Counted from the stretch's first letter, positions 594 through 24,612 are shown. The stretch: 64,000 bases of DNA from Candidatus Eiseniibacteriota bacterium (GCA_046327815.1 JAXLXR010000015.1:28073-92072), one strand, 5' to 3'. The notes: a model not told the origin generated them from the sequence alone. Numbers and translations: made by a program.

Positions 594-3059
594 CTAGTTC
601 GTCAGAATCAGGCGGCGCGTGACGCGGTTGCCGCCCATGCTCAGCTCGTAGAGGTACACGCCGCTGCGCAGGCGCCGGCCGTCGTCACCGAGGCCCGCCC
701 ACGTCACGGAGTGCGTGCCGACCGGCAGCGTCGCGTCCATCAGCTTCGCGACGCGGCGGCCGGTGACGTCGTACACGCGGAGCGCCACGTGACCGGCGCG
801 GTGCAGTTCGAACGAGAAGTTCGCGCGGCGCGAGACCGGGTTCGGCATGACCGGCCGGAGCGACGCGAAGCCCGCGCGATCCGCGGGGGCGTCGGGCCCG
901 ACGCCGGCGACGTCGGAGCACACGCCGTACACGTTCATCACGCGCACGATCGGCGTGGCCGACGTGTTCGCGACGTCGTCCAGGTACAGCGTGCGGTTGC
1001 CCGCGGCGCCGCACTCGAACGTGCCGTTCAGCCAGTACTTGAACTCGACGTTCTGCGCGCTCGAATCCGGGAACGTGATGGCGCGCGCGTAGAACATGTC
1101 GCCGGCGGCGTTGTCGTACGCGCCACCGTTGTTGAGCAGCAGCACCGAAGGCTCGCGACGGTCCCACGTGAGCGGGAACGCCGTGCCCATGACGGCGAGC
1201 GAGTCGGCCGGCAGCGCGGGCAGCGGCGAGACCGCGTCCATCTGCACCTTGAACACCACGGTCAGCGGCTTGTCGGTCACGCTGCACCGGTCGATGCCGC
1301 GGGCCGGCATGACGATCGGGTTCGCGGAGCTGAAGAGCGCGTCGTTCAGGTACACGTTGCGGTCGTTCTGGCCGAGGCACTCGATGACGCCGTTGTGGTC
1401 CACCTTCCAGTTCACGTTCTTCGGCGAGCAGGCCGGGAACGTGACGCGGGCGGTGTAGATCTTGTCGCCGGCCACGGCGTCCGGAGCGACGCCGTTGTCG
1501 AGCATCGCGGTGCCGGGCTGCGTCCAGTGCAGCGGCGACACGCTGCCGAGCACGGTGAACACGTCACCGGGCGCCGGCGAGATCCGCGACGCGTCCACCT
1601 GGAAGATCACGTCCACCGCACGGGTCGTGTAGTTCGCCGGGTCGTCGTTGTTCCACGACTCGGTGATCGTGGCCGCGGCGCCGTTGTCGCTCGTCAGGTG
1701 GTAGTTGCGGTTGCTGCCGAGCGGCTCCCACACCGTGCACTTGGCGGTGAACTTCCACTCGAGGTCCGCTTCGCCCTTGCCCGTGGCCTTGTTGACCGGC
1801 AGGCAGAACGGCACGACCACCGTGTACACCGAGTCGGTGTTCGCGTCGGTCATCAGCGAGTTGTCGCACTGCAGGAACGTGAGCGGCGGCACGCTGCCTT
1901 CGACCGAGAACGTGTCCGCGGCCGTGAAGGCGCCGGAGCACATGCCGACCTTGAAGTTGCCGTTGAACGTCACGTTCTGGAGGAAGAACGAGCCGACGTT
2001 CGTGTCGCCGTTGTTCACGATCGTGTTGAGCGCATTGTCCTTCACGTTCTGCACGGTGACGTTGTACTGCGCCGCCTGCGCGTTGATCACGCCCGACAGC
2101 GTCAGGTGCACCACGTTGGTCGCGGCCGCGTCACGCACCGCGCCGATCACGGAGCGGGTCACGGGGCCCGTGAGCACGTAGTTCGCCGTCGTCTGCGCCG
2201 ACGCCAGCTGCACGGGCTCGCTGAACGTGACGTCCACCTTGTTCGTGACGAGCGCGAACTGGCGGTTCGCCTGCAGCGTGTAGCCGACGGCCTGCACGTT
2301 GGTCACGACCGGGGGCGTGTTGTCGGAGAACGCCTGCACGGTGTACGGCACCATCGAGGTCATCTGCACAACGGCCGCGGTGTCGTAAGTCGTGCTCGCG
2401 AAGCGCGACATCTGCACGTCGTCGCTGGCGAACGCGTCGAGCGGGCCCTTGGTGGTGCCTTCCTGCGTGACCCAGAACTCGAGGTGCAGCGGGGTGCCGG
2501 CGCTCACGCCGAGCACGCTGAGCGGGATCTTCAGCTCGCGGAAGCTGGTGCTGTCGATGATCCCGAGGCCGTTCGAGCCCGAGCCCCACGCCGGGTTCAC
2601 GAGCGTCGAGCGGTTCACCCAGGTGCCGACGGTGTCCTTGTAGAGCACTTCGTAATTGAAGGTGTTGCAGTTCGTCGGGGTGACGTCGTAGACGATCCAG
2701 TCCGGCTTGAACGCCACGTTGCTCCAGCCGATCTTGCGGCCGAACGGATCCGTGGTGCCGCCGCCGGCGGTGTTCACGTCGATCGCCATGCCCACGTTCA
2801 TGTCGCAGTAGCAGGACTTGGCGAACTCGAAGCCGACGTAGAGGAAGTTCGCATCGTTGGTGACGTAGACCTTGCCGACGTCCATCGGGAAGATGCCGGC
2901 GCCACAGTTCGACTGGGTATCCTGCGCATCGTCCCCGAGCAGGTTGCTCGGATCGAAGTCGTTCACGCCGTCCACGGTGATGGTCTGCGGAACGGCCGCA
3001 TGCGCCGGAGCGGCCCCGAGTGCGACGAGGGCCAGCAGGACGAGAAGCAATCGCTTCAT
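594..3059 (-). CDS. Large secreted multidomain protein (~821 aa) with a CBM9/DOMON-like N-terminal module, Ig-like beta repeats and a C-terminal T9SS-type (FlgD-Ig-like) sorting domain
   Basis: Track ORF 594..4580 has a low-complexity R/A/G N-terminal extension. The real start is MKRLLLVLLALVALGAAPAHA (signal peptide) at 3059..3057, in frame with the stop at 594. N-terminal motif ITVDGVNDFDP...KVYVTNDANFLYVGFEF resembles CBM9-like modules. The C-terminal ~70 aa (VALRVYDVTGRRVAKLMDATLPVGTHSVTWAGLGDDGRRLRSGVYLYELSMGGNRVTRRLILTN) match the T9SS type A / FlgD-Ig-like sorting-domain pattern. Confidence 0.75.
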   Translation of the reverse strand: MKRLLLVLLALVALGAAPAHAAVPQTITVDGVNDFDPSNLLGDDAQDTQSNCGAGIFPMDVGKVYVTNDANFLYVGFEFAKSCYCDMNVGMAIDVNTAGGGTTDPFGRKIGWSNVAFKPDWIVYDVTPTNCNTFNYEVLYKDTVGTWVNRSTLVNPAWGSGSNGLGIIDSTSFRELKIPLSVLGVSAGTPLHLEFWVTQEGTTKGPLDAFASDDVQMSRFASTTYDTAAVVQMTSMVPYTVQAFSDNTPPVVTNVQAVGYTLQANRQFALVTNKVDVTFSEPVQLASAQTTANYVLTGPVTRSVIGAVRDAAATNVVHLTLSGVINAQAAQYNVTVQNVKDNALNTIVNNGDTNVGSFFLQNVTFNGNFKVGMCSGAFTAADTFSVEGSVPPLTFLQCDNSLMTDANTDSVYTVVVPFCLPVNKATGKGEADLEWKFTAKCTVWEPLGSNRNYHLTSDNGAAATITESWNNDDPANYTTRAVDVIFQVDASRISPAPGDVFTVLGSVSPLHWTQPGTAMLDNGVAPDAVAGDKIYTARVTFPACSPKNVNWKVDHNGVIECLGQNDRNVYLNDALFSSANPIVMPARGIDRCSVTDKPLTVVFKVQMDAVSPLPALPADSLAVMGTAFPLTWDRREPSVLLLNNGGAYDNAAGDMFYARAITFPDSSAQNVEFKYWLNGTFECGAAGNRTLYLDDVANTSATPIVRVMNVYGVCSDVAGVGPDAPADRAGFASLRPVMPNPVSRRANFSFELHRAGHVALRVYDVTGRRVAKLMDATLPVGTHSVTWAGLGDDGRRLRSGVYLYELSMGGNRVTRRLILTN

Positions 3060-3389
3060 GAGGGTGCTCTCCAGCCGGGTCGGGGTGCGTGATTGCAGAG
3101 AAGAGCGGCAGGCTGGACCCGGTGCAGCCCGCGTCCCGGTCGCTCGGACCGGAAACCCGGAATTTCGACGCGTCAATGGTAGGTGTTCCGGCGGACGTAG
3201 TGCAATGCCGCGGGCCCACCGGAATGCACATTTTTTCGGGGTCGAAAGTGTCGTCCAACGCACGGCCCGCGTTGCCGAAAGCCGTGGCCCTCCGGACTCC
3301 TTGACCCACCCCCGTGCGGGTCGCACTATGCGGCCGTCCACGCCTGCATTCCGCACGGCGCCACCCACGACTCTCCCTTCGGCACCCCC
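3060..3389. promoter_or_regulatory. 330-bp divergent intergenic region between two secreted-protein genes; presumed bidirectional promoter region
   Basis: Non-coding gap between divergently transcribed genes 594..3059(-) and 3390..4667(+). No convincing ORF. Promoter elements not individually resolved. Confidence 0.3.
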
Positions 3390-4667
3390 GTGAAAAGACC
3401 CGCATTCCTCGCGGCCGCACTGGTCCTCGCCGTGCTCGCCGCGCCGTCCTTCGGCGCGACCGCGCGCAATCTCGGCAGCGTGATCCAGATCGACGGCTAC
3501 GCCAGCGAGTACAGCCCCGACGACTCGGTGTTCGTCCTGAACGAGACCTCGCTCACGCTCGAGGAGCCGTGGGCCGACTCGAAATGGGGCGTGAACAACG
3601 ACGTCAACCAGATCTTCGTGACCTGGGACGCGAAGTACCTCTACTTCGCGGTCAACGGCATCACCTGGGACAACAACATGGTGCTGCTGATCGACTCCAC
3701 GCCCGGCCGCGGCCTCGAGTCCATGCTGAACATCAACTCGTGGAAGCGCCGGTTCGTGTTCGACACCACCGGTTCGGCGGCGGGCACCGGGTTCGCGCCC
3801 GACCTGTTCGGCGCCACGTGGGACGGCAACACCAGCCCGCACCTGATCATCCAGCAGAGCGGCAACACCGTGATCGACGCCATCGTCGGGCCGTTGTTCC
3901 GCGCCTCGGCCTCGTTCTCGAAGGGCAGCACCGGCCGGGCCATGGAGTTCGCGGTCCCGTGGCAGCAGGTGTTCCTGTCGTCCGCGCAGCCCGCGATCGG
4001 CACCAAGGACACGATCATCACGGTCGGCGGCGTGACGGATTCCATCCACGTGTTCCCGAAGGGCGCGAAGCTCAAGCTGGTGGCGGTGGTGACGGCCGGC
4101 GGCGACGACACCGGCGGCCCCGATACGGCGCCCGACATCCTCGGCGAGATCACCGACCAGTCGTCGGCGCAGGTGTACGTGGACAACTGGGTGATCGTGG
4201 ACCTCGACCGCAACGACGACACCGGCCTCGGGCACGGCGGCCCCGACGGCGTCGCCGACTGGGGCGTGTCCCCGCACTCGCGCGTCTCGTTCCGCGTGCG
4301 GCCGCCGTTCGTGAGCAAGCAGTTCTCGGCGTCGCGCATCCATTTCGACCGGCCGGCGTTCCGGCCCGACGCGGGCGAGCGCCTGCGCTACACGTTCGAC
4401 CTGAACGAGTACGTGGACCCGAACGACCCCGTGGACGACTTCCGCAAGGTCAAGGTGACCGCCAAGATCTTCGACATCCGAGGTCGCGTCGTGCGCACGT
4501 TCCCCGAATCCTCGCGCACCGCGCGCCACCCGCTGGACCCTGAAGTGGACCAGTGGGACGGCCGTGACGACACGGGACACATCGTGGACGGCGGCATCTA
4601 CGTGCTGCGGCTCACGGTGTCCGGCAGCCTCGAGCGCGCCACGCGCTCGTTCGTGGTGGTCCGATGA
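3390..4667 (+). CDS. Secreted protein with a CBM9/DOMON-like N-terminal module and a C-terminal T9SS-type (FlgD-Ig-like) sorting domain
   Basis: GTG start. Signal peptide MKRPAFLAAALVLAVLAAPSFGA. N-terminal motif IQIDGYASEYSPDD...WDAKYLYFAVNG (CBM9-like). C-terminal tail ...VKVTAKIFDIRGRVVRTFPE...DGGIYVLRLTVSGSLERATRSFVVVR matches the same sorting-domain family as 594..3059 and 24629..26305. Confidence 0.7.
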   Translation: MKRPAFLAAALVLAVLAAPSFGATARNLGSVIQIDGYASEYSPDDSVFVLNETSLTLEEPWADSKWGVNNDVNQIFVTWDAKYLYFAVNGITWDNNMVLLIDSTPGRGLESMLNINSWKRRFVFDTTGSAAGTGFAPDLFGATWDGNTSPHLIIQQSGNTVIDAIVGPLFRASASFSKGSTGRAMEFAVPWQQVFLSSAQPAIGTKDTIITVGGVTDSIHVFPKGAKLKLVAVVTAGGDDTGGPDTAPDILGEITDQSSAQVYVDNWVIVDLDRNDDTGLGHGGPDGVADWGVSPHSRVSFRVRPPFVSKQFSASRIHFDRPAFRPDAGERLRYTFDLNEYVDPNDPVDDFRKVKVTAKIFDIRGRVVRTFPESSRTARHPLDPEVDQWDGRDDTGHIVDGGIYVLRLTVSGSLERATRSFVVVR

Positions 4668-5587
4668 GCCGCCGCCTCGCCTTGCTCGCCCTGCTGCTGC
4701 TGCTCCCCCGCCCCGCGGCGGCCTACTTCGAAGACGTCCGCACCGGCTCGCGCGGTCTGGCGATCGGGCCTTCGGCGATCGCCGTGGTGACCGACGCCTC
4801 GTCCTACTACTGGAATCCCGCCGGCCTCGCCGAGCTGCCGAAGACCGAAGTGACCGCGGACTGGATCTCGATGTACGGCCTGTCCGAGCTGAGCTCGGGC
4901 GCGGTCGCGGCCGCCACGCGCGTGCGCGGCACGTCGTTCGGGGTCGCGTGGCACCACCTCGGGCTCGAGAACGTCTATGCCGAGGACCAGCTCTGCGCCG
5001 CCGCCGCGCGGCGCGTGCTCACCACCGGCAGCGGTCACCGGCTGTCGGCGGGCCTGACGTTCAAGTTCAGCCGCGCCGCGTTCGAACCGTTCGCGGTGAG
5101 CGGCGGCGGCATCGCCGACTACGGCGCGATCTCGCGCGGCTCGTTCGACGCCGGCCTGCGGCTGCAGACGCCGTGGCGCACGGACGTCGCGTACGTCGTG
5201 CGCGACGTGTTCCGGCCGCGCTACGAGTTCGTCGAGGGCTCCGGCGGTCACCAGCAGGCGCGGCGCAGCGAACTCGCCGCGGCGTTCCGCTGGAACCGCG
5301 AGTCCACGTTCTCGGTCGGCTGGTCGCAGCTCGGCGACGGGCGCTCCACGCTGAGCACCGGGCTCGAGATCAACTTCTACGACGTGTTCGCGATCCGCAC
5401 CGGACTGTCGAACCTCGCCACCGTCTACCGCTCGTACGGCCTGCCCGAGAACATCCAGTACGAGGGCGGGTTCGGCGTCTACCACCACGGCTACCACGTG
5501 GACGCCGTGGCGAGCACGACGCGCGAACTCGGCGCGTCGTACCGGGTCACGGTCCGCGTGCCCGTCTCGATCGGAGGCCAGCCGTGA
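4664..5587 (+). CDS. PorV/PorQ-like outer-membrane protein (putative T9SS-associated)
   Basis: Signal peptide MSRRLALLALLLLLPRPAAA. Motif GSRGLAIGPSAIAVVTDASSYYWNPAGLAEL resembles the conserved N-terminal G.RA.AMGGA...ADDASA.YWNPAGLA block of the PorV/PorQ family. Start overlaps the upstream stop (ATGA) and lies next to cargo genes with T9SS-type tails. The family call is by motif memory only. Confidence 0.45.
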   Translation: MSRRLALLALLLLLPRPAAAYFEDVRTGSRGLAIGPSAIAVVTDASSYYWNPAGLAELPKTEVTADWISMYGLSELSSGAVAAATRVRGTSFGVAWHHLGLENVYAEDQLCAAAARRVLTTGSGHRLSAGLTFKFSRAAFEPFAVSGGGIADYGAISRGSFDAGLRLQTPWRTDVAYVVRDVFRPRYEFVEGSGGHQQARRSELAAAFRWNRESTFSVGWSQLGDGRSTLSTGLEINFYDVFAIRTGLSNLATVYRSYGLPENIQYEGGFGVYHHGYHVDAVASTTRELGASYRVTVRVPVSIGGQP

Positions 5588-7212
5588 GCGCGCGCCGCCT
5601 GCTGACCCTGCTGCCCGCGCTCGGCCTGCTGCTCGGCGCGACGCCGGTCCACGCCGTCACCAAGCTCGAGGGCGAGTACCAGCTCATGCTCGAGCTGCGC
5701 AAGAGCGCCTTCAACCGCAACTTCCGCTGGGACTGGAACTCGAACGAGTACGACACCTACAACAACGCGCAGCTGCGGCTCTTCTCCACGCCGCGCGCGG
5801 GAGTCGAGTCGTTCGTGAAGGTCGAGGCGGCGTACCGCCCGAACGGCGAGAACGACGGCCCGCGGCCCGAGTTCAAGTACCGCGAGATGCACCTGCGCTT
5901 CCGCCGGCAGTTCGGCAAGCGCGAGTGGGACACCTACCTGTTCTCGCGCCAGGACCGCTTCTGGACCGACCCGTACCAGGTGCAGAGCTTCGACGCGAAC
6001 GTGCACGGCTTCAAACTCGAGCCGCTCGTGTACGGCCGCGGGGACTGGCAGGGCATCCGCACGGAGTACAAGGGCGACCGCGGGCTCAACCTGGTGTTCG
6101 TGGTCGGCGACCGCAGCAACCAGGTGGATCCGGGCAACTACTCGGGCCTGTTCGGCACGTCGCCGCTCGACTCGCTGAACGCCGCGCACGCCCTGCGCAC
6201 GGACGACCTCTACCTGTTCCGCGCCCGCCGTGACTTCCTCAAGGACTCGCGGCTCAAGCTCGGCCTGCTGCTCGTGCGCACGGAGAACTGGAACGGCGCC
6301 GACAGCCTGAACTCGAACGGCCGCCTGCCCAAGGAACCCGGACGCGGCGTGTGGGCCGTGGACGGCCACCTGCGCGTGCTCGGCTCGGACGTGAACATGG
6401 TGTACTCCGAGGCCTACCCGCACTTCGGCTCCGGCAACGGCACGCGATCGGAAGTCACGATCGGCAAGCGCTCGACCGGCCTGCAGCTGCCGGACGCCGC
6501 GATCCTCGAGGGCGAGATCCGCAGCATCCGGTTCGGAACGGCGCGCACGGGCTTCGTGAACGTGGTGCCGATCTGGTTCTCGCGCGGACCGCGCTGGTAC
6601 AACCCGGCCGGCCCTCCCGGCGCGAACCAGACGGGCTACCTGATCCAGTCCTACTACCTCATGCCCGAGCGCGCGATCACGCTCTCGCACAACTTCGGCT
6701 GGAGCAGCGACGGCTACGACCGGCGGCTCGGCTCGAAGATGACGTACGACGACATGTACGTGGAGTTCGTGAACGGCTTCACGGGCAAGCTCGCGTACCG
6801 CACGGTCGAGTCGTACTCGTACGACTTCCGTGGCGACCTGCAGGGCGTCAAGCACGACGACCTGATCGCCGAGGTGCAGGTCGAAAGCCGGCTCGCGTGG
6901 CTGCGCGTGCAGGCCAAGGCCGCCGACGTCGGCAATCCGGCGGCGAAGCAGCTGTTCGTGGTCGAGCAGTCCATCAACGTCACGCCGAAGGCGAAGTTCT
7001 ACAACCGGTTCGCGTTCGGCAACGATCCCGACAAGCTCCGCAAGGCCATCTTCACGCAGTTCCAGTACCGCCCGACCGGAAGCATGGAGATGTTCCTGCA
7101 GTACGGCCCGGACTACATCGGCGGCGGCAGCATGCCCGTGGACGAGTGGTCCCTCAACGGTGGCGGCGACCAGATCGACCAGGTCAAGTTCATCCTCAAG
7201 GGGTTCTTCTGA
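5584..7212 (+). CDS. Hypothetical outer-membrane beta-barrel protein
   Basis: GTG at 5584 overlaps the upstream stop (GTGA). Signal peptide VSARRLLTLLPALGLLLGATPVHA. Alternating amphipathic beta-strand pattern rich in Y/W/F/N/D. The C-terminus ends ...FILKGFF with a terminal Phe typical of OM beta-barrels. Confidence 0.55.
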   Translation: MSARRLLTLLPALGLLLGATPVHAVTKLEGEYQLMLELRKSAFNRNFRWDWNSNEYDTYNNAQLRLFSTPRAGVESFVKVEAAYRPNGENDGPRPEFKYREMHLRFRRQFGKREWDTYLFSRQDRFWTDPYQVQSFDANVHGFKLEPLVYGRGDWQGIRTEYKGDRGLNLVFVVGDRSNQVDPGNYSGLFGTSPLDSLNAAHALRTDDLYLFRARRDFLKDSRLKLGLLLVRTENWNGADSLNSNGRLPKEPGRGVWAVDGHLRVLGSDVNMVYSEAYPHFGSGNGTRSEVTIGKRSTGLQLPDAAILEGEIRSIRFGTARTGFVNVVPIWFSRGPRWYNPAGPPGANQTGYLIQSYYLMPERAITLSHNFGWSSDGYDRRLGSKMTYDDMYVEFVNGFTGKLAYRTVESYSYDFRGDLQGVKHDDLIAEVQVESRLAWLRVQAKAADVGNPAAKQLFVVEQSINVTPKAKFYNRFAFGNDPDKLRKAIFTQFQYRPTGSMEMFLQYGPDYIGGGSMPVDEWSLNGGGDQIDQVKFILKGFF

Positions 7213-9458
7213 TGCGCGCGCGTTCGATCACTTCCGCTCTCCTGCTGGCCGCGACGCTCGCCCTTTCGGCGGCGACCGCGGCGTTCGCCGCGCCCGAGAA
7301 GGTCGCCGGCGGCATCCGCTTCACGTACAAGGACGGCAACGCCTCGAACGTGTCGTGGGCCGGCGCGTTCAACAACTGGAACGGCACGGCGAACCCCATG
7401 ACCAAGGACGCGAACGGCGTCTGGACGGTCGTGATCGCGCTGCCCGCCGGCGAACAGCAGTACAAGTTCGTCGTGGACGGCAACTGGGTCGCCGATCCCG
7501 ACAACGGCGCCACGGCCGGCGACTTCGGCAACAGCGTCGTGCGCATCGGCAATGCCGGCGAGCTGCTCAAGGTCGCCGCCACGTCGAACACGCCCTACAA
7601 CCCCAAGATCAACATGGGCGGCCGGGCGATCGGCCTGTACCGGAGCACGTGGAGCGACGTGGAATACGCGCGCTACGAGCTCGAGCGGCCCGAACTCGAC
7701 ATGGACCTCGGCTTCGACATCCGCATGTCCGACGCGCTCATGACGAAGTTCCTGCTCAACGTGAATCCGCGCCACGAGAACGTGCAGGACTACAAGAGCC
7801 GGCTGAACTTCAAGCGCGGCTCCATGACGCTCACCCAGCCCAGCTTCACGCTCACGATGTTCGACAGCGAGCCGCTCGGCACGTGGGACGATCCGCTGCA
7901 CCTGGTCGGCGCCGAAGGCGTGTACGCGCACCCGTTCGGCTACGAGCGCGCCGGCTTCCGGCTCAAGACGCCGAAGTACGGCTTCGACACCGAAGTGCTG
8001 TACACGGACAACACCGCTCCCGGCGGCGTGAGCTCGCCGGGCTTCGGCTCGTTCGTCACCGGCAACCGCGCCATCGCGGTCGAACCCTCGGGCGCGGGCT
8101 GGCGGCTGGTGCACGGCGCGGTCTCGAAGGCCACCGCCACCGACGTCGGCGACAACCACGGCGTGTACGGCTACGGCGACGGGGACGCGGACCTCATGGC
8201 CGCGCGCATCCGCCGCCGCGTGCGCGACGACCTCACGGTCGGCGTGCTCGGCCGCAGCGACCGCGGCTTCCACTTCGGCACGATCGACCTGCTGCAGGCC
8301 ACCGGCGACAGCTCGTACGTGCGCTGGCAGGGCAACGACTACCAGCAGTCGTTCGGCGCCGGCCTCGACGCGCAGTGGTCGCCGCGCGCGAACGTCTCGG
8401 TCGAGGCCGAGTTCGCGATGGGCGGCCGGCGCCTGGTGCTGACCGACGGCGCCACCCGCAAGGACGGCAAGGTCGCCACCGCGACCGAGACCGAGGTGAC
8501 CGCCACCGAGACGACGACCGACGGGGCCGGCGCGCACTTCTCGCTCGACGAGAGCAGCCGCTGGGTGCTGCGCGGGCACTGGACGTTCGCGCAGGGCGAC
8601 GTCGCGCTGCACGCCGGCGTCGAGCGCCAGGACCACACCTACCCGGCGTGGTCGCAGGAGCCGATCACCCCGGCCGGCACGCCCTCGATCTACCACCAGC
8701 GCCAGCTGAACGTGGAGTACCAGCGCGGCGACTACCTCGACGACGCCGAGCTCGAGAACCACATGACCGAGTGGAATCTCGTGTGGGACCGCAACTGGCG
8801 CTACTACCTCGGCCGCCCGGTCCGCACCTCGCTCGGCGTGACGTGGACGAACTTCCGCTACGACGCGCGCACCGCGTGGGAGCACCAGCTCTGGTTCCCG
8901 AACGGCAACTTCTGGCTGTCCCCGGGCCAGCACGTGGTGTCGGTCGCGCGCATGACGCTGCTCGGCGAGCCGCAGGCGATCGAGCTGCGGCCCACGATCG
9001 AGTACCCGATCCGCCGCGCGAACGCCATGAGCCTCACGCTGACCGGCCACTACGCCACCACGCGGCTCGACAAGAAGCCGCGCTTCGCCGAGACCATCGC
9101 GCGCTTCGGCTTCGACGCGAACCGCGCGGTGCGCCTGCAGACCGACTGGCGCTGGGCGCGCTACGACGTGCCGGCGCTCGACCTGCAGCGCGGCTACCTG
9201 TCGCAGTTCACCGAGGCGATCTACCGCTTCGGCGACGAGGCCTCCGTGTCGCTGGGCTTCGGCGTGGATCCCTACGTCGTGGACCGCGTCACCAACGAAT
9301 ACGCGTACGTCGGCCGCGAGATGTTCCTCGAGGACCTGAACGCGAACGGCTGGGTCGCCGAGTCGAACTGGTTCAGCCTCGCGCCGCAGCTGTCGGCCGC
9401 GGAGAAGAGCCTGCAGAACACGAAGCGCATCCAGCTCAAGGCCGTGGTGCACTTCTAG
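7212..9458 (+). CDS. Outer-membrane protein: N-terminal CBM48 (glycogen/starch-binding, E-set) module fused to a large beta-barrel-like domain
   Basis: ATG at 7212 overlaps the upstream stop by 1 nt. Signal peptide MRARSITSALLLAATLALSAATAAFA. Residues ~30-110 FTYKDGNASNVSWAGAFNNWNGTANPMTKDANGVWTVVIALPAGEQQYKFVVDGNWVADPDN fit the CBM48/AMPK-beta glycogen-binding pattern (W..W...M....W.....G.Y.YKF.VDG.W..DP). The remaining ~630 aa show a beta-strand pattern and end ...KAVVHF with a terminal Phe. Confidence 0.65.
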   Translation: MRARSITSALLLAATLALSAATAAFAAPEKVAGGIRFTYKDGNASNVSWAGAFNNWNGTANPMTKDANGVWTVVIALPAGEQQYKFVVDGNWVADPDNGATAGDFGNSVVRIGNAGELLKVAATSNTPYNPKINMGGRAIGLYRSTWSDVEYARYELERPELDMDLGFDIRMSDALMTKFLLNVNPRHENVQDYKSRLNFKRGSMTLTQPSFTLTMFDSEPLGTWDDPLHLVGAEGVYAHPFGYERAGFRLKTPKYGFDTEVLYTDNTAPGGVSSPGFGSFVTGNRAIAVEPSGAGWRLVHGAVSKATATDVGDNHGVYGYGDGDADLMAARIRRRVRDDLTVGVLGRSDRGFHFGTIDLLQATGDSSYVRWQGNDYQQSFGAGLDAQWSPRANVSVEAEFAMGGRRLVLTDGATRKDGKVATATETEVTATETTTDGAGAHFSLDESSRWVLRGHWTFAQGDVALHAGVERQDHTYPAWSQEPITPAGTPSIYHQRQLNVEYQRGDYLDDAELENHMTEWNLVWDRNWRYYLGRPVRTSLGVTWTNFRYDARTAWEHQLWFPNGNFWLSPGQHVVSVARMTLLGEPQAIELRPTIEYPIRRANAMSLTLTGHYATTRLDKKPRFAETIARFGFDANRAVRLQTDWRWARYDVPALDLQRGYLSQFTEAIYRFGDEASVSLGFGVDPYVVDRVTNEYAYVGREMFLEDLNANGWVAESNWFSLAPQLSAAEKSLQNTKRIQLKAVVHF

Positions 9459-9472
9459 GAGGACACTCACCC

Positions 9473-9877
9473 ATGCGCCGAATCTCCCTCCTGCTCGTGC
9501 TCGCCGCGCTGGCGCTCGTCGCGCTCGCCGGCTGCAGCACCCTGACGTTCGTGAAGCGCCGCCTGCCGCCGCCCACCGTGGGCGCAGACGGCGTGCTGTT
9601 CCGCTTCTACGCCCCGTCCGCGAAGGCCGTGCAGCTCGCGGGCAACTGGCCCGAGAACAACTGGCTCAGCGGCCAGGCGCAGTCGGGCGGGCTCAACATC
9701 GGGCTCATGAACGACGACGACCACGACGGAATCTGGACGCGCACCGAGAAGCTCCCGCCCGGCCGCTACCAGTACAAGTTCGTCGTGGACCAGGTGAACT
9801 GGAAGGAAGACCCGAACAACCCGAACCGCACCAACGACGGCTACGGCGGCAACAACTCGGTGCTGGACGTCCGATGA
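9473..9877 (+). CDS. Small lipoprotein consisting of a single CBM48 glycogen/starch-binding module
   Basis: Lipobox LAGC (MRRISLLLVLAALALVALAGCS). Then VLFRFYAPSAKAVQLAGNWPENNW...GIWTRTEKLPPGRYQYKFVVDQVNWKEDPNNP, a CBM48-type module. Shine-Dalgarno GGAGG upstream. Confidence 0.7.
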   Translation: MRRISLLLVLAALALVALAGCSTLTFVKRRLPPPTVGADGVLFRFYAPSAKAVQLAGNWPENNWLSGQAQSGGLNIGLMNDDDHDGIWTRTEKLPPGRYQYKFVVDQVNWKEDPNNPNRTNDGYGGNNSVLDVR

Positions 9878-10728
9878 ACGCACTGCGACGGCTGCTCCCG
9901 CTCCTGTGTCTCGCCGGCCTCGTACTGCTCGCCGGCTGCGGCAAGAACCTGCCCACGAGTTCGATCGTCCCGACCGGCTACCGCCCGGGCACGCCTCCCG
10001 GCGCGATCGCCGGCTCGATCCTGTACGACACGACGACCTACGACATGCCCGGCGCACCCTACCCGCCCGTGCGCATCGAACTGCACACGTTCCACCACGA
10101 CACGCTCGGGCCGCTGGTCGCGTCGAGCAGCAGCGGCGGCGCGAACCGCGGTTTCGCGTTCACCGGGCTCATGCCCGACAGCTACATGGTGCAGCTCAAG
10201 GCGCACGGCTTCGCCGCGCGCGACTTCGGGCCGTTCCGCGTCGAACTCGACCCCATCGCGGCCGGCGCGGTGTTCCTGCCCGCGCAGTCCGAATCGCTGC
10301 CCGCGATCACGTTCGTGATCGGCACCATGCCGGGATTCTCGGTGGACGACGCGTTCGGCACCTTCGCGACGAGCATGTACCAGGATCCGCTCGGCCTGTG
10401 GAAGTACCCGGACTTCCTGTTCGGCTACACGTCCATCGCCGCGGGCACGTACCGCTTCAAGTTCGTCACCGACTTCTCCTCCACCCCGACGCACCTGATC
10501 GGCTGGGGCGGTGATTCCACGATCACCTACGTGGCGCCCGTGACGAACCAGCCGGTGCGCTTCGCCTCCGGCCCCGCCGAGGACATCAAGGTCACGTTCC
10601 CCTCGTCCGGCAACTGGGACTTCCAGTTCGACGAACGCCGGCTCACCTTCAGCATCACGCCCGCCCCGCCCGTGCCCGCGCTCGCGGCACGTACGGCCCG
10701 TGCGGTGCGCACGAGGATCGTCCGATGA
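9874..10728 (+). CDS. Lipoprotein with a CarboxypepD_reg-like N-terminal domain and a CBM-like C-terminal half; SusE/SusF-like in organisation only
   Basis: ATGA overlap with the upstream gene. Lipobox LLAGCG. Segment GAIAGSILYDT...VRIELHT...FAFTGLMPDSYMVQLKAHGFAARD resembles carboxypeptidase-regulatory-like domains. The C-terminal GTYRFKFVTDF...LIGWGGD is reminiscent of starch-binding modules. Function is inferred from context. Confidence 0.55.
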   Translation: MNALRRLLPLLCLAGLVLLAGCGKNLPTSSIVPTGYRPGTPPGAIAGSILYDTTTYDMPGAPYPPVRIELHTFHHDTLGPLVASSSSGGANRGFAFTGLMPDSYMVQLKAHGFAARDFGPFRVELDPIAAGAVFLPAQSESLPAITFVIGTMPGFSVDDAFGTFATSMYQDPLGLWKYPDFLFGYTSIAAGTYRFKFVTDFSSTPTHLIGWGGDSTITYVAPVTNQPVRFASGPAEDIKVTFPSSGNWDFQFDERRLTFSITPAPPVPALAARTARAVRTRIVR

Positions 10729-12140
10729 AGATCACGCTCCGTACCCTCTGTGCCCTGCTCCTCACCACCGCGCTCAGCGGCTGCGCCGGCGGCTGGCGTG
10801 GTGGCGTGGCCCCCGCGGCGTGGGACACCGCAGCGCCCGTGGCGGCGGCCGCGCCCGCCGCGAAGGCGAAGGCGAACGGCAAGGCGACCGCGGTCACCGA
10901 GTCCGGTGTGCAGTTCGTGTACGCGGGCGAGGCGTCCAGCGTGAACGTGGCCGGTGAGTTCAACAGCTGGTCCACGTCGGCCGACCCCATGCAGAAGCAG
11001 GCGAACGGCACGTGGACGCTGACCAAGGCGCTCGCGCCGGGCCGCTACCAGTACAAGTTCGTGCTCAACGGCGGCGACTGGAAGGCGGACGACAACGCGC
11101 CCGAGTTCGCGGACGACGGCTACGGCGGCAAGAACTCGCTCGTCGTGGTGACCGGCGCCGCGGTCGCGGCTGCGGCGGCGAAGCCCGCGGCGGCGGGCGG
11201 TCCGGCGGTGAGCGGCGACGGCGTCACGTTCCGCTACACGGGCACGGGCGGCAGCGTGAACGTGGCCGGCGAGTTCAACAGCTGGTCCACCAGCGCCGAC
11301 CCCATGAAGAAGCAGGCCGACGGCACGTGGACGCTGACCAAGGCGCTCGCCCCCGGCCGTTACCAGTACAAGTTCGTCGTGGACGGCACCAACTGGAAGC
11401 AGGACGACGCCGCGGCCGAGTTCGTGGACGACGGTTACGGCGGCAAGAACTCGCTCGTCGTGGTCGGCGGCACCGCGGCGGCGGCTCCGGCGGCTCCTGC
11501 CGCGGCGGCCGCGCCCGCCGCGAGCGGCGACGGCGTCACGTTCCGCTACAAGGGCCCGGGCGGCAGCGTGAACCTGGCCGGCGAGTTCAACAGCTGGTCC
11601 ACCAGCGCCGACCCCATGAAGAAGCAGGCCGACGGCACGTGGACGCTCACCAAGGCGCTCGCGCCCGGCCGCTACCCGTACAAGTTCGTCGTGGACGGCA
11701 CCAACTGGAAGTCCGACGACGCGGCCACCGAGTTCGTGGACGACGGCTACGGCGGCAAGAACTCGGTCGTCGTGGTCGGCGGCGGCGCGGCCGCCGCACC
11801 CGCGGCTTCCGCCGCCAGGCCCGCCGGTGCGGTGAAGCCGCTCGCCGCGGGCGTGAAGCCGCAGGCGCCTCGCGTCACCGCCGCCGGCGTGGTGTTCACG
11901 TTCGCGGGCAGCGCGCGCACCGGTGTGTCGGTGTGCGGCGACTTCAACAGCTGGGGCGTCACGGTGAACAAGATGACGCAGAACGCCGACGGCTCGTGGA
12001 CCGCGACGGTCAAGATGCCGCCCGGCAGCTACGCGTACAAGTTCCTCGTGGACGGCACCACCTGGAAGCAGGACGAAGGCAATCCCGCCACGGCCGACGA
12101 CGGCTTCGGCGGCAAGAACTCGATCATCGTCGTGAAGTGA
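10725..12140 (+). CDS. Lipoprotein with four tandem CBM48 glycogen/starch-binding modules
   Basis: Lipobox LSGCAG. Four ~100-aa repeats each read ...V.F.Y.G.GGSVNVAGEFNSWSTSADPM.KQADGTWTLTKALAPGRYQYKFVVDG.NWK.DDAA.EFVDDGYGGKNS.VVV. Repeats 2 and 3 are nearly identical. Repeats are separated by Ala/Pro-rich linkers. Confidence 0.75.
   Translation: MKITLRTLCALLLTTALSGCAGGWRGGVAPAAWDTAAPVAAAAPAAKAKANGKATAVTESGVQFVYAGEASSVNVAGEFNSWSTSADPMQKQANGTWTLTKALAPGRYQYKFVLNGGDWKADDNAPEFADDGYGGKNSLVVVTGAAVAAAAAKPAAAGGPAVSGDGVTFRYTGTGGSVNVAGEFNSWSTSADPMKKQADGTWTLTKALAPGRYQYKFVVDGTNWKQDDAAAEFVDDGYGGKNSLVVVGGTAAAAPAAPAAAAAPAASGDGVTFRYKGPGGSVNLAGEFNSWSTSADPMKKQADGTWTLTKALAPGRYPYKFVVDGTNWKSDDAATEFVDDGYGGKNSVVVVGGGAAAAPAASAARPAGAVKPLAAGVKPQAPRVTAAGVVFTFAGSARTGVSVCGDFNSWGVTVNKMTQNADGSWTATVKMPPGSYAYKFLVDGTTWKQDEGNPATADDGFGGKNSIIVVK
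10956..11890 (+). repeat. Intragenic tandem DNA repeats, three units of ~312-315 bp, encoding the CBM48 modules of the 4xCBM48 lipoprotein
   Basis: The string gagttcaacagctggtccac... recurs at ~10956, ~11271 and ~11583. Units 2 and 3 are near-identical at DNA level. A fourth, diverged module follows at 11890..12120. Confidence 0.7.
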
Positions 12141-12231: not shown

Positions 12232-14886
12232 ATGTCCCTCCGCACGCCCATCGCGCGCGTCGCGCTCGCGGCCACGCTGGCCTGCGCCGCGCTGCTTTCG
12301 GCCGCGCTGCCCGCCTGGGCCACCAAGGTCACGTTCCGCTACCAGCCCGTCATCGGTGGCGTCTCCCGGGTGAGCGTCGCCGGCAGCTTCAACGGCTGGA
12401 AGGCGGACGCCAACCCGATGACGGACCCGGACAAGGACGGCGTCTGGTCCGCGGACATCGAGATCCCGGCGGGCCGGGTGCAGTACAAGTTCGTGGTCAA
12501 CGGCGACCAGTGGATGACCGACGAGAACGCCGCGGAGTTCGAAAGCGACGGGCTCGGCGGCCAGAACAGCGTGCTGGTCGTGACCGACAAGCCGGTGATC
12601 GCGGGTTACGGCACCACCGTGAAGAAGGCTCCGCCGGTGAAGGCCGGGATGCGTCGCGTGACGTTCTCGTTCAAGCCGGACAAGAAGCCCGATGCGCTGT
12701 GCGTGGCCGGCGCGTTCAACGACTGGACCGTGGGCAAGACGCCCATGACCGATCCCGACGGCGACGGCACGTACACGACCACGCTCCTGCTCGCCCCGGG
12801 CAGCTACCCGTACAAGTTCGTGATCGGCTCCAGCGGCTGGACGCAGGACAAGGCCGGGCAGGATTCCGAGATCGACGACGGCTTCGGCGGCAAGAACTCG
12901 ATCCGCGTCGTGGACGAGCGCTTCCCCTCGCTCGAAGTGAAGCGCGGCGACGGCAAGCTGTTCCCGGACGGCATCGAGCACACGCAGAGCGCGAACGAAG
13001 TGAACGCGCTGGGCGGCGGCCGCGTGCAGTTCACCGCGCGCGCGCACCTCGACGACGTGGACGGCGTGGACCTGGTCACGTGGGGTCCGGCCGAGACCAT
13101 CACCACCATGCATCGCGCGAACACGGACAAGGTGTTCGAGTACTTCCGCGCCGAGGTCAAGCTGCCCGCCGGCAACGTGCCGTACGCGTTCCGCTACCGC
13201 GACGGCACGAAGACGTGGTGGCTGGGCGCGAAGGGCGTGACCGAGGCGGCGCCCGAGAAGTTCACGTTCGACCCCGCGCGCTTCCCGGCGTTCACGACGC
13301 CCGACTGGGTGCGCAACGGCGTCATCTACCAGGTGTTCCCGGACCGCTTCCGCAACGGCAACCCGGCGAACGATCCCGACTTCAAGGAGTGGTACTACGA
13401 AGGCAAGCGCACGCTGCCGGCGAGCGGCGTGCTGAACACCGACTTCCAGGAGTACTACCACCTCGTCCGGAACTGGAACGACTACGCGGCGCTCACGCAG
13501 GCGCCCCACACGCCGGACCACCGTGACTGGATGGCGTTCTACGGCGGCGACATCGAGGGCGTGCGCCAGAAGCTCGACTACCTCAAGTCGCTCGGCGTCA
13601 CGATCCTCTACTTCAACCCGATCTTCGAGGCGAAGTCCACGCACAAGTACGACGCCGCGGACTACCGCAAGATCGATCCGCACTTCGGCACGAACGCCGA
13701 GTTCGTCACGTTCGTGAAGGAAGCGCACGCCAAGGGCATCAAGATCATCCTCGACATCGTCTACAACCACTCGGGCAACTCGAACTTCGCGTTCCGCGAC
13801 GCCGTGCAGAACGGCGAATCGAGCCCGTACTGGAAGTGGTACGAGTTCCGCCGCTGGCCGCTTCCCGCCGGCTGGCCGTCGCCCGCGACGAGCTGGAAGC
13901 CCTCCGACTACTACGCGTGCTGGTGGAACTTCGGCGACCTGCCCGACCTCGACTTCGACCTGTCGCGCGACGACAAGGCCGAAATCCCGATCAAGGACGT
14001 CAAGGACGCGCAGCCGAACATCGGGCTCGTGAACTACCTGCTCGACGCGACCACGTACTGGCTGCGCGACGCCGACGTGGACGGCGTGCGCCTCGACGTG
14101 CCGAACGAAGTTCCGTTCTGGTTCTGGAAGCTGTTCAACCAGCGCGTCAAGACTGTGAAGCCCGACGCCTACATCGTGGGCGAACTCTGGGGCAACGCGT
14201 CCGACTACGTCCGCCCGGGCGTGTACGACGCCGTCATGAACTACGCGTTCTTCCGCGACCCGGTACTCAAGTTCCTCGGCATGGGCCAGGGCACGGCCGC
14301 GGAGTTCGACGCCTCGCTCTCGACGGGACGGCTCACCTACCCGATGCAGGCCGTCGAAGTGCAGATGAACCTGATCGACAGCCACGACACGGTGCGGTTC
14401 CTCACGCAGGTCGGCGGCAACACGTCGCGGCTGATGCTCGCGGCGCTGTTCCAGATGACCTACGTGGGCGCGCCGGCGATCTACTACGGCGACGAGATCG
14501 CCATGGAAGGCCAGCGCGATCCCGACTGCCGGCGGCCGTTCGTGTGGGACTGGGAGAAGGACCCGAAGCGCGTCGCGATGCACGCGTGGTACACGAAGCT
14601 CGCGAACCTGCGGCTCGGCCACTCCGCGCTGCGCGCGGGCGAGTTCGTCACGCGCAAGGCCGAGGGCATGACCTACCTGTACTCGCGCACGGGCGGCGGC
14701 GAAGAGTTCCTCGTCGCGATCAACGCCGGGCGTTCGCCGCAGAACGTGGCGCTCGACCTGGGCCCGTGGGGCGGCAAGGTGACCGCCGTGGACGCGCTCG
14801 AGGGCGGCGCGCCGCAGGCCTGGACGGGCACCGCCACGATCACGCTCGCGCCGGAGAGCGGCCGGATCTTCCAGCTGACGCGCTGA
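12232..14886 (+). CDS. GH13-family alpha-amylase / neopullulanase-like glucanase with two N-terminal CBM48 modules
   Basis: Signal peptide MSLRTPIARVALAATLACAALLSAALPAWA. Two CBM48-type modules: VTFRYQP...SVAGSFNGWKADANPM...VQYKFVVNGDQWMTDEN and RVTFSFKPDK...VAGAFNDWTVGKTPM...YPYKFVIGSSGWTQDK. Then GH13 catalytic signatures VIYQVFPDRFRNGN, GGDIEG...LDYLKSLGVTILYFNPIF, KIILDIVYNHSG, DGVRLDVPNEV, IVGELWGN and NLIDSHDTVRF. Confidence 0.9.
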   Translation: MSLRTPIARVALAATLACAALLSAALPAWATKVTFRYQPVIGGVSRVSVAGSFNGWKADANPMTDPDKDGVWSADIEIPAGRVQYKFVVNGDQWMTDENAAEFESDGLGGQNSVLVVTDKPVIAGYGTTVKKAPPVKAGMRRVTFSFKPDKKPDALCVAGAFNDWTVGKTPMTDPDGDGTYTTTLLLAPGSYPYKFVIGSSGWTQDKAGQDSEIDDGFGGKNSIRVVDERFPSLEVKRGDGKLFPDGIEHTQSANEVNALGGGRVQFTARAHLDDVDGVDLVTWGPAETITTMHRANTDKVFEYFRAEVKLPAGNVPYAFRYRDGTKTWWLGAKGVTEAAPEKFTFDPARFPAFTTPDWVRNGVIYQVFPDRFRNGNPANDPDFKEWYYEGKRTLPASGVLNTDFQEYYHLVRNWNDYAALTQAPHTPDHRDWMAFYGGDIEGVRQKLDYLKSLGVTILYFNPIFEAKSTHKYDAADYRKIDPHFGTNAEFVTFVKEAHAKGIKIILDIVYNHSGNSNFAFRDAVQNGESSPYWKWYEFRRWPLPAGWPSPATSWKPSDYYACWWNFGDLPDLDFDLSRDDKAEIPIKDVKDAQPNIGLVNYLLDATTYWLRDADVDGVRLDVPNEVPFWFWKLFNQRVKTVKPDAYIVGELWGNASDYVRPGVYDAVMNYAFFRDPVLKFLGMGQGTAAEFDASLSTGRLTYPMQAVEVQMNLIDSHDTVRFLTQVGGNTSRLMLAALFQMTYVGAPAIYYGDEIAMEGQRDPDCRRPFVWDWEKDPKRVAMHAWYTKLANLRLGHSALRAGEFVTRKAEGMTYLYSRTGGGEEFLVAINAGRSPQNVALDLGPWGGKVTAVDALEGGAPQAWTGTATITLAPESGRIFQLTR

Positions 14887-14987: not shown

Positions 14988-16088
<1,101 letters not shown>

Positions 16089-16242
16089 GGTCGTGTCCGG
16101 GCCGGAAAGAGAAGGGCGCGAAGCGTTGCGCGAAGCGCGGCGACCGTACTCCGTCGGAGCGCGCACCCGCAACCCTCCGCACCCCGTCCGGCGGTGCGAC
16201 CATGAAACGATTTTCAGCCCCGCCGGAGACCGACGGCGGCGG

Positions 16243-24332: not shown

Positions 24333-24575
24333 GGTTTCCTCGGTGGTCAACGCGGTCGGACCGCGATTGACGCGGCTTCGCGCGTCATGCGGGGTCGGAA
24401 TGGGCGCGCAAGTTAGCACGAAGTCCCGGACCGGGGCATGCCGGGCGCGATTTTCTCCCCAACGGGAGAACAGAGAGACCGCCGCAGGTGCTTTTCGGCC
24501 GCAGGAGCCCCCGACTTGCGCCTCAGATGCACTTCGCCCGCCCGCGGACTCACCCTCTCCCACCGCCGGAAAACC

Positions 24576-24612
24576 GCTCGGCCCGCCCCCCGAAGCGGGA
24601 GGCGGGCCGAGC
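24576..24612 (-). terminator. Strong rho-independent terminator downstream of the metalloprotease gene
   Basis: 12-bp perfect stem GCTCGGCCCGCC / GGCGGGCCGAGC at 24576..24587 and 24601..24612. The 13-nt loop itself folds (CCCG-AAG-CGGG). On the minus strand it is followed by CGGUUUUCCGG. It lies 14 nt past the stop at 24629. Confidence 0.65.

What the first reader, a model, noticed from the sequence alone, without database searches (positions are those of the whole stretch)
7212..9458. Outer-membrane beta-barrel fused to an N-terminal CBM48 starch/glycogen-binding module
One polypeptide combines a signal peptide, a clean CBM48-type module (W..W...M....W....YKF.VDG.W) and ~630 aa with beta-barrel character ending in a terminal Phe. 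A carbohydrate-binding module covalently attached to a barrel suggests a glycan-capturing porin or a surface anchor for the rest of the locus. This is not the architecture of SusC, LamB maltoporin or CymA.
Basis: inference. Interest (0 to 1): 0.7.

Follow-up and report, generated by a model that had tools for sequence, protein, structure and literature searches.

The report
Starch-binding module fused to outer-membrane barrel
This gene from an uncultured Eisenbacteria bacterium encodes a large outer-membrane barrel with a starch/glycogen-binding module attached, and it sits in a conserved, undescribed gene cluster that probably captures and imports starch-like sugars differently from the known bacterial systems.

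Summary
Window 7212-9458 (+) is a real 748-aa gene: Sec signal peptide, a significant CBM48/AMPK-type glycogen-binding module (res ~29-112), a ~19-aa linker, then ~620 aa that AlphaFold2 folds confidently (pLDDT 86) into a large beta-barrel. All top structural matches are transmembrane outer-membrane barrels, and the protein ends in a classical beta-signal (…LKAVVHF).

The barrel has no Pfam family and no sequence relative in the PDB. A barrel-only profile found 296 representatives among 1.84 billion. All 76 full-length members tested carry 1-3 N-terminal starch-binding modules (CBM48; once CBM20).

The gene is the fourth in a conserved cassette found in Eisenbacteria and Krumholzibacteriia:
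- A: a surface protein with a T9SS-type C-terminal domain
- B: a PorV/PorQ-like barrel
- C: a second large, usher-like barrel
- D: this protein
- E: a highly conserved CBM48 lipoprotein

In the main clade this is followed by multi-CBM48 lipoproteins, a GH13 enzyme (19/19 assessable genomes) and MalK.

Best reading: an outer-membrane component of a non-SusCD, plug-less alpha-glucan capture/uptake apparatus. Not settled: whether the CBM48 faces the periplasm (default topology) or the surface, and whether glycan actually passes through this barrel.

The parts
594..3035 (-). Divergently transcribed secreted protein (813 aa) with a T9SS-type C-terminal sorting domain. Probably a surface-exposed partner of the locus.
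   Evidence: FlgD_ig E 1e-7; Por_Secre_tail (TIGR04183) 30.8 bits, above its cut-off of 23. The frame plot shows the real minus-strand gene ends near 3035. Conserved upstream of the cassette in Eisenbacteria loci at 49-78% identity.
3390..4667 (+). Gene A: 425-aa secreted protein. The ~340-aa N-terminal part is unknown; the C-terminal part is a FlgD-Ig/T9SS-CTD-like domain.
   Evidence: Signal peptide by sequence. C-terminus matches the PorU C-terminal region (NCBIfam E 3e-5). FlgD_ig found in 11/26 orthologues; the profile hits FlgD and weakly PorU 6za2. Orthologues elsewhere carry Glucodextran_C and CHU_C.
4664..5587 (+). Gene B: 307-aa PorV/PorQ-like small outer-membrane barrel. Its start overlaps the stop of A (ATGA).
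   Evidence: NCBIfam PorV_fam 36.3 bits, below the cut-off of 90. 31/31 orthologues hit PorV/PorQ family, best E 7e-19. The profile hits the F. johnsoniae PorV structure 6h3i_F at E 3.9e-7.
5584..7212 (+). Gene C: 542-aa second large outer-membrane barrel ending in GFF. No Pfam family.
7212..7289 (+). D: Sec signal peptide (res 1-26, AFA|AP).
   Evidence: Read from the sequence. A26 and P28 are nearly invariant in 71 homologues.
7296..7547 (+). D: CBM48 / AMPK-beta-type glycogen-binding module (res ~29-112).
   Evidence: Pfam hits above the gathering cut-offs. Alignment to AMPK beta1 CBM 1z0n. W56, K85, W92 and N107 are invariant in 71 homologues.
7548..7604 (+). D: linker between CBM48 and barrel (res 113-131).
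   Evidence: Low pLDDT at res 124-129. The motif ATSNTxYSPKI is conserved within Eisenbacteria.
7605..9458 (+). D: large outer-membrane beta-barrel (res 132-748, roughly 22-26 strands). It has a conserved aromatic loop (W556, Q559, W561, F562, W568), a helical loop at res 701-736 and a C-terminal beta-signal ending in F748.
9473..9877 (+). Gene E: 134-aa lipoprotein consisting of one CBM48. It is the most conserved gene of the cassette.
   Evidence: Lipobox LAGC. AMPK1_CBM E 1.7e-7. 64-89% identity where D is 37-74%. The mature N-terminus CSxLNF(I/V)KRRLPP is conserved. Always directly downstream of D.
9874..10728 (+). Gene F: 284-aa lipoprotein, no significant family.
   Evidence: Lipobox LAGC. 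Only a CarboxypepD_reg hint at E 0.13. Present in Eisenbacteria loci at 27-63% identity.
10725..12140 (+). Gene G: 471-aa lipoprotein with four CBM48 modules joined by Ala-rich linkers.
   Evidence: AMPK1_CBM E 6.4e-55, 4 stretches. Lipobox LSGC.
12232..14886 (+). Gene H: 884-aa GH13 enzyme of neopullulanase/cyclomaltodextrinase type with two N-terminal CBM48 modules. It has a Sec signal peptide only, with no lipobox and no T9SS C-terminal domain.
   Evidence: Alpha-amylase E 2.4e-63, Alpha-amylase_N, Malt_amylase_C. Nearest NCBIfam models are maltodextrin glucosidase and cyclomaltodextrinase, both below cut-off. Sequence.
14988..16172 (-). MalK-type ABC sugar-import ATPase, convergent with the operon.
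   Evidence: ABC_tran, OB_MalK, TOBE_2. Conserved at this position in many loci.

Best explanation
The protein (D) is the CBM48-bearing outer-membrane barrel subunit of an alpha-glucan (starch / glycogen / maltodextrin) capture-and-uptake apparatus. The apparatus is specific to Candidatus Eisenbacteria and Krumholzibacteriia.

Proposed working:
1. On the cell surface, proteins with T9SS-type C-terminal domains hold the polymer. These are A, docked on the PorV/PorQ-like barrel B, and the divergently encoded 813-aa protein.
2. Alpha-glucan chains enter through one or both large plug-less barrels, C and D.
3. The CBM48 tethered to strand 1 of D binds the incoming chain at the channel mouth and prevents back-diffusion, so no TonB energy is needed. 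It acts with the invariably adjacent CBM48 lipoprotein E and the 4xCBM48 lipoprotein G. By the default outer-membrane-protein topology this mouth is periplasmic, though that is unproven.
4. The Sec-exported GH13 enzyme H, itself carrying 2 CBM48, cuts the chain.
5. A MalK-energised ABC transporter imports the products.

Shown here: the domain architecture, the barrel fold, conservation of the glycan-binding residues, the obligate CBM-barrel fusion, and the conserved gene neighbourhood.

Inferred: direction of transport, which barrel conducts glycan, the side of the membrane on which the CBM48 sits, and the ratchet mechanism.
For: - CBM48 scores above Pfam cut-offs. The AMPK-beta glycogen-binding motifs align and W56, K85, W92 and N107 are invariant in 71 homologues.
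- No plug, TonB-receptor, LamB or autotransporter domain was found.
- A barrel-only profile found 296 relatives in 1.84e9 representatives. 75/76 full-length members scanned have CBM48 and the other has 2xCBM20. The barrel is therefore always fused to a starch-binding module, and the module family can be swapped.
- The A-B-C-D-E cassette is conserved down to 25-27% identity and in Krumholzibacteriia-type loci.
- In 32 Eisenbacteria species the order is kept, with GH13 in 19/19 loci that extend far enough and MalK in many. L038 instead has GH57, GDE_C, sugar ABC permeases and a binding protein, so the catabolic alpha-glucan context persists when the enzyme family changes.
- Within the locus, proteins with T9SS-type C-terminal domains lack CBM48, and all CBM48 proteins (D, E, G, H) lack such a domain. 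This fits two compartments.
Against: - No experiment exists. The organism is uncultured.
- I could not inspect model coordinates or PAE, so the position of CBM48 relative to the barrel, the pore size and the strand count (22-26) are not established.
- A simple hydrophobic-face analysis of the predicted strands was only partly supportive. Several strands are polar on both faces.
- No surface amylase is evident in the locus, so polymer would have to enter uncut or be cut by an enzyme encoded elsewhere.
- Multi-CBM lipoproteins with long linkers (G) are more typical of cell-surface capture than of periplasmic function.
- Two divergent clades (L002, L037) have the cassette without any glycoside hydrolase within 6-10 kb.
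- A glycoside hydrolase next to a barrel also occurs in polysaccharide export operons.
Confidence: 0.6

Rival explanations
1. Surface display / adhesin anchor. The barrel mainly anchors the protein, and the N-terminal CBM48 is threaded to the cell surface in an autotransporter-like way. There it tethers the cell, or the rest of the complex, to starch granules. No glycan passes through D; C or another channel does the transport.
For: - The order passenger-linker-C-terminal barrel is that of type Va autotransporters (established knowledge).
- Copy number of the N-terminal modules varies from 1 to 3, and CBM20 can replace CBM48, as in surface starch-binding proteins.
- A 19-aa linker with low confidence could span a pore.
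- Neighbouring multi-CBM48 lipoproteins resemble SusE/F-type surface binders.
Against: - There is no autotransporter barrel domain.
- The barrel is far larger (~620 aa, matching 22-24-strand barrels) than the 12 strands used for passenger export.
- No known class exports an N-terminal domain through such a barrel.
- Surface proteins of this locus use T9SS-type C-terminal domains, which D lacks.
Confidence: 0.15
2. T9SS-associated scaffold. C, D and E are accessory outer-membrane components that assemble or hold the surface protein A (with B) and the lipoprotein E. D's barrel would house a partner, as LptD houses LptE or MtrB houses MtrA. The CBM48 would only position the complex on glycan, and the barrel would not be a glycan channel.
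For: - B is a PorV/PorQ-family barrel.
- A carries a CTD-like domain.
- PorP-like proteins anchor adjacent type B CTD cargo (PMC9143113).
- E is unusually conserved, with a conserved lipid-proximal tether. This suggests a tight protein-protein interface.
Against: - All sampled members carry starch-binding modules and sit in alpha-glucan catabolic contexts. This argues for a substrate-specific role, not a general secretion role.
- No homology to known T9SS components was found for C or D.
Confidence: 0.12
3. Export porin for a self-made alpha-glucan (capsule or exopolysaccharide). The periplasmic CBM48 would guide the nascent chain into the barrel, as the TPR-barrel proteins BcsC, PgaA and AlgK/AlgE do. 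GH13 would be the trimming hydrolase typical of such operons.
For: - An N-terminal periplasmic glycan-handling domain plus a C-terminal barrel is the layout of synthase-dependent exporters. AlgE, PelB and PgaA appear among the structural matches.
- Hydrolases are common in export operons (established knowledge).
Against: - No glycosyltransferase or synthase lies in or next to the cassette in the window or in the loci inspected.
- The neighbours are import and catabolic genes: MalK, sugar ABC permeases and binding protein, GH13, GH57, GDE_C.
Confidence: 0.05

Closest known systems
Bacteroides starch utilisation system (SusC/SusD with SusE, SusF, SusG)
   Same: One locus combines an outer-membrane barrel, lipoproteins made of starch-binding modules, a GH13 enzyme and downstream import. 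The lineage belongs to the same FCB superphylum.
   Different: D has no plug, TonB box or TonB-receptor domain, and there is no SusD-like partner. The starch-binding module is covalently fused to the barrel. Two further barrels (PorV-like B, usher-like C) are obligatory neighbours. The CBM family is 48 (or 20), not the Sus types.
Maltoporin LamB with the MalEFGK system (and CymA cyclodextrin porin)
   Same: A plug-less, presumably TonB-independent outer-membrane route for alpha-glucans, coupled to a MalK-energised ABC importer. D has a conserved aromatic-rich loop that could play the role of a greasy slide (inference).
   Different: There is no sequence similarity. LamB has 18 strands and forms trimers, and CymA has 14 strands. 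D's barrel is ~620 aa and matches 22-24-strand barrels best. Neither LamB nor CymA carries a CBM.
TonB-dependent transporter barrels (FhuA, FhuE, ZnuD, OprC)
   Different: Identity is 9-10% and TM-scores only 0.3-0.4. There is no plug or TonB box. The N-terminal domain is a carbohydrate-binding beta-sandwich.
CBM48 / AMPK-beta glycogen-binding module
   Same: Significant HMM and PDB matches. The Trp-Lys-Trp-Asn binding residues are aligned and invariant.
   Different: Known CBM48s are attached to GH13 enzymes, kinases or phosphatases, not to membrane barrels.
Large barrels that enclose a partner (LptD-LptE, MtrB-MtrA/C, chaperone-usher FimD/PapC)
   Same: Comparable barrel size. They appear among the structural matches of C and D. 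A small, highly conserved lipoprotein (E) is always encoded next to the barrel.
   Different: No sequence homology was found, and no evidence yet that E sits in a barrel.
T9SS anchoring pairs (PorV-PorU, PorQ-PorZ, PorP-like proteins with type B CTD cargo; PMC9143113)
   Same: Genes A (CTD-like C-terminus) and B (PorV/PorQ family) are adjacent and translationally coupled, like the cargo/anchor pairs of Bacteroidota.
   Different: B scores below the curated family cut-off in the window (36 vs 90 bits). The pair is embedded in a glycan-utilisation cassette. The phylum is not Bacteroidota.

Membership tests
CBM48 (Pfam PF02922 / PF16561 AMPK1_CBM) | HMM score above the curated gathering cut-off | tested here: met
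   AMPK1_CBM 50 bits (cut-off 26.8); CBM_48 39.6 bits (cut-off 22.4).
CBM48 (Pfam PF02922 / PF16561 AMPK1_CBM) | Conserved carbohydrate-contacting residues. In AMPK beta1 these are W100, K126, W133 and N150 (numbering from memory of the published structure). | tested here: met
   FNNW, QYKF and VDGNW align with the same motifs of 1z0n. W56, K85, W92 and N107 are invariant in 71 homologues.
CBM48 (Pfam PF02922 / PF16561 AMPK1_CBM) | Binding of alpha-glucan | not testable with these tools
   Needs a binding assay.
Bacterial outer-membrane beta-barrel protein (generic) | Sec signal peptide and a C-terminal beta-signal ending in an aromatic residue | tested here: met
   MRAR…AFA|AP at the N-terminus; …RIQLKAVVHF with alternating hydrophobic residues at the C-terminus. 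F748 is conserved in at least 90% of homologues.
Bacterial outer-membrane beta-barrel protein (generic) | Closed antiparallel barrel fold | tested here: met
Bacterial outer-membrane beta-barrel protein (generic) | Lipid-facing hydrophobic belt | tested here: inconclusive
   Alternation is clear in about 8 strands and weak in others. The mean hydrophobic face is 0.83 on the Kyte-Doolittle scale.
TonB-dependent transporter / SusC | N-terminal plug domain (PF07715) and TonB-dependent receptor barrel (PF00593) | tested here: not met
   No such hit in D at E<=0.01, nor in 66 relatives at E<=0.001.
TonB-dependent transporter / SusC | Adjacent SusD-like lipoprotein | tested here: not met
   No SusD family among the locus proteins.
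Maltoporin LamB (PF02264) | Family HMM match; 18-strand trimeric porin of about 420 aa | tested here: not met
Type V autotransporter | 12-strand C-terminal translocator domain (PF03797) with an intraluminal linker helix | tested here: not met
   No Pfam hit. The barrel is about 620 aa and no autotransporter is among the top structural matches.
T9SS PorV/PorQ family (for neighbour gene B) | NCBIfam NF033709 above its curated cut-off | tested here: inconclusive
   The window protein scores 36.3 bits against a cut-off of 90. However, 31/31 orthologues match at E<=0.01 (best 7e-19), and the profile hits PorV 6h3i_F at E 3.9e-7.

The most novel reading that the evidence does not exclude
The cassette encodes a previously unrecognised, TonB-independent 'threading' machine for polymeric alpha-glucan. 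Three different barrels form one outer-membrane complex. The CBM48 occupies the sequence position of a TonB-dependent transporter plug, immediately before strand 1. It would act, possibly together with the ultra-conserved CBM48 lipoprotein E, as a glycan-gated plug and Brownian ratchet that reels long chains into the periplasm for a CBM48-armed GH13. That would be a third solution to outer-membrane glycan import, besides SusCD-type transporters and specific porins.
Probability: 0.2. Interest if true: 0.85.

Novelty: new variant of a known kind. Interest (0 to 1): 0.66.

Why it matters
Two ways are well understood for Gram-negative bacteria to move starch-like glycans across the outer membrane. 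One is TonB-powered SusC/SusD pairs, and the other is small specific porins such as LamB.

This locus shows a third layout, conserved across two uncultured phyla that are common in soils, sediments and wastewater. A large plug-less barrel is permanently fused to a starch-binding module. It is flanked by a second large barrel, a PorV-like barrel with its CTD-bearing surface protein, and a CBM48 lipoprotein.

If it imports polymeric chains, it gives a testable model for TonB-independent uptake of long glycans, and a marker cassette for alpha-glucan use in genomes where SusCD-based PUL prediction finds nothing. It also defines a barrel family with no Pfam entry and no solved structure.

Tried and rejected
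- Foldseek against AFDB50 was unavailable, so no comparison with predicted structures of annotated proteins was possible.
- The search for related loci with the divergent barrel alignment A4 failed for lack of conserved stretches. It was repeated with the closer alignment A6.
- A barrel-only profile against PDB sequences gave no hit at E<=10.
- hhalign of the D family against the C family gave probability 20%, with only a ~50-column stretch near the C-terminus. Common ancestry of the two barrels is not shown.
- The Kyte-Doolittle two-face analysis of predicted strands was only partly informative, and I do not rely on it.
- A possible TonB-box-like stretch in the linker (…LLKVAATS…) is not conserved across the family and was dropped.
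- By eye, the upstream 813-aa protein seemed to have three CBM20-like repeats. Pfam at E<=5 and a self-BLAST gave nothing, so this is not claimed.
- Pfam at E<=5 found no domain in the N-terminal part of A or in F.
- Five literature searches found no description of this protein family or cassette.
- A soluble beta-sandwich array was rejected on the structural matches.


Full report
**What is there**

The window is 71% G+C. A third-position GC frame plot resolves the many overlapping ORFs listed into one plus-strand operon:
- A: 3390-4667
- B: 4664-5587
- C: 5584-7212
- D: 7212-9458 (the finding)
- E: 9473-9877
- F: 9874-10728
- G: 10725-12140
- H: 12232-14886

Most junctions overlap by 1-4 nt. 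A divergent minus-strand gene lies at 594-3035 and a convergent MalK gene at 14988-16172. D is 748 aa and identical to an NCBI protein of a Candidatus Eisenbacteria MAG annotated only as 'glycogen-binding domain-containing protein'.

**Checking the observation**

D starts with a standard Sec signal peptide (MRAR, hydrophobic core, AFA|AP).

Residues ~29-112 match AMPK1_CBM (E 3.5e-13, 50 bits against a cut-off of 26.8) and CBM_48 (39.6 against 22.4). They also match the solved AMPK beta1/beta2 carbohydrate-binding modules (E down to 4e-11). The FNNW, QYKF and VDGxW motifs are in register. In a 71-sequence family alignment, W56, K85, W92 and N107 are invariant. From my memory of the AMPK-cyclodextrin structure, these correspond to the sugar-contacting W100, K126, W133 and N150.

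The remaining ~620 residues have no Pfam or NCBIfam family and no sequence relative in the PDB, even with a profile at E<=10.

AlphaFold2 with the 71-sequence alignment gives mean pLDDT 86.1 and pTM 0.75. It shows a beta-sandwich, a low-confidence linker, then about 26 long antiparallel strands, with a helical segment (701-736) before the last strand.

The C-terminus (I-x-L-x-A-x-V-x-F) is a textbook beta-signal. A crude hydrophobic-face analysis of the predicted strands was only partly supportive. I take the strand number as roughly 22-26 rather than exactly 26.

**The fusion is obligatory and glycan-specific**

A profile built from the barrel part only (A4) was searched against 1.84 billion representative proteins. 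It found 296 relatives at E<=1e-3.

In full-length hits the barrel starts at residue ~110-390. Pfam scans of 10 + 66 such proteins found CBM48/AMPK1_CBM in 75. The remaining one has two CBM20 modules instead. No other Pfam family appeared in the 66-member batch scan.

Members with names come from Eisenbacteria and Krumholzibacteriia. Krumholzibacteriia-type members carry two or three tandem modules.

The query contained no CBM. This therefore shows that the barrel essentially never occurs without a starch-binding module, and that selection acts on alpha-glucan binding as such.

**Genomic context**

Neighbourhoods of increasingly distant homologues (42%, 27% and ~25% identity, plus the CBM20 variant) all keep the same five genes in order:
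- A: ~370-2000 aa, with FlgD_ig, CHU_C or Glucodextran_C hits in some
- B: ~280-320 aa
- C: ~500-530 aa
- D
- E: ~130-150 aa, CBM48

A scan of one genome per GTDB species found 32 loci. All that are named are Candidatus Eisenbacteria.

tblastn with the window's proteins shows the full order kept: T9SS-type protein (-), A, B, C, D, E, F, …, GH13, MalK (-). A GH13 catalytic domain is present in all 19 loci that extend at least ~6 kb beyond the start of D.

Two divergent clades lack a nearby glycoside hydrolase (L002, L037). A third has GH57, a GDE_C enzyme and a sugar ABC transporter instead (L038).

**The neighbours**

- **B** is a remote PorV/PorQ-family barrel. The window protein scores 36 bits against a cut-off of 90. 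However, 31/31 orthologues hit the family (best E 7e-19), and their profile hits the Flavobacterium PorV structure at E 3.9e-7.
- **A** ends in a FlgD-Ig-type domain like the CTD of T9SS cargo and PorU. Adjacent CTD-protein/PorP-like pairs are a known way of anchoring T9SS cargo at the surface (PMC9143113).
- **E** is a lipoprotein made of one CBM48 and is the most conserved gene of the locus, at 64-89% identity where D is 37-74%. Its lipid-proximal segment CSxLNF(I/V)KRRLPP is conserved.
- **G** is a lipoprotein with four CBM48 modules.
- **H** is a neopullulanase/cyclomaltodextrinase-type GH13 with two CBM48. It has only a Sec signal peptide.

**How it most likely works**

The evidence fits an outer-membrane alpha-glucan capture/uptake complex that replaces SusCD or LamB in these phyla.

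Proteins bearing T9SS-type CTDs (A on B, and the 813-aa protein) would be at the surface. None of them has a CBM48. All the CBM48 proteins (D, E, G, H) lack a CTD.

N-terminal extensions of outer-membrane barrels normally stay in the periplasm. Combining this rule with the CTD/CBM48 split, I favour, at roughly 55:45, a periplasmic CBM48 at the inner mouth of the D barrel. There it would act with E and G to trap incoming chains and hand them to H, with products imported by a MalK-type ABC system. The alternative, surface display as in SusE/F, remains fully possible.

The aromatic-rich invariant loop (W556, Q559, W561, F562, W568) is a candidate sugar-binding constriction, but this is inference only.

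Rival readings are listed with the tests that would separate them: an autotransporter-like adhesin anchor, a T9SS-linked scaffold whose barrel houses E, and an export porin.

**Comparison and novelty**

D is a genuine CBM48 carrier and a genuine outer-membrane barrel. It fails the membership tests for TonB-dependent/SusC transporters, LamB and autotransporters.

The barrel family has no Pfam model and no solved relative. Five literature searches found no description of it or of the cassette.

I class it as a new variant of a known kind (glycan-utilisation loci and outer-membrane glycan channels), with an unprecedented domain fusion and a three-barrel cassette. Interest is moderately high. The architecture and its strict conservation are surprising and experimentally tractable, but the function is still inferred.

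Noticed in passing
window 28536-50128: A tandem array of seven large Ser/Thr protein kinase genes on both strands. Most have C-terminal PD40/TolB-like beta-propeller repeats, one has TPR repeats and one an N-terminal zinc ribbon.
   Followed up: no
window 9473-9877 and orthologues in L001-L038: The small CBM48 lipoprotein E is far more conserved than its neighbours: 64-89% identity against 37-74% for the D barrel. The segment right after the lipidated Cys is nearly invariant and basic (CSxLNF(I/V)KRRLPP). This suggests a tight protein-protein interface, perhaps with one of the barrels.
   Followed up: partly
window 594-3035 (-): The long ORF 594-4580 listed mechanically is only coding up to about 3035. 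Its 813-aa product has a T9SS C-terminal domain. By eye it has three ~110-aa modules with a CBM20-like pattern (…G..PL.W……Y…V.FP…V.WK……NR..YL), but Pfam at E<=5 and self-BLAST did not confirm any repeat or CBM.
   Followed up: partly
window 24629-26305 (-): A PA-domain protein with a FlgD_ig-type C-terminal domain. This is another candidate T9SS-type cargo, showing that the FlgD_ig-like CTD is the common surface-sorting tag in this genome.
   Followed up: no
L038 10001-12508 (P0339): A family member in which two CBM20 modules replace CBM48 on the same barrel. It sits in a locus with GH57, GDE_C, Glucodextran_C proteins and a sugar ABC transporter instead of GH13.
   Followed up: partly
L002 and L037 (divergent clade): The A-B-C-D-E cassette lies next to pyruvate-phosphate dikinase, a PatA_N protein and STAS / anti-sigma-type regulators. 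No glycoside hydrolase lies within 6-10 kb. The substrate or regulation may differ in this clade.
   Followed up: no
window 21567-25340 (-) and 26990-28531 (+): 2-oxoglutarate dehydrogenase E1 (its real start is later than the listed ORF start, which overlaps the PA-domain gene) and a TMEM260-like protein O-mannosyltransferase.
   Followed up: no
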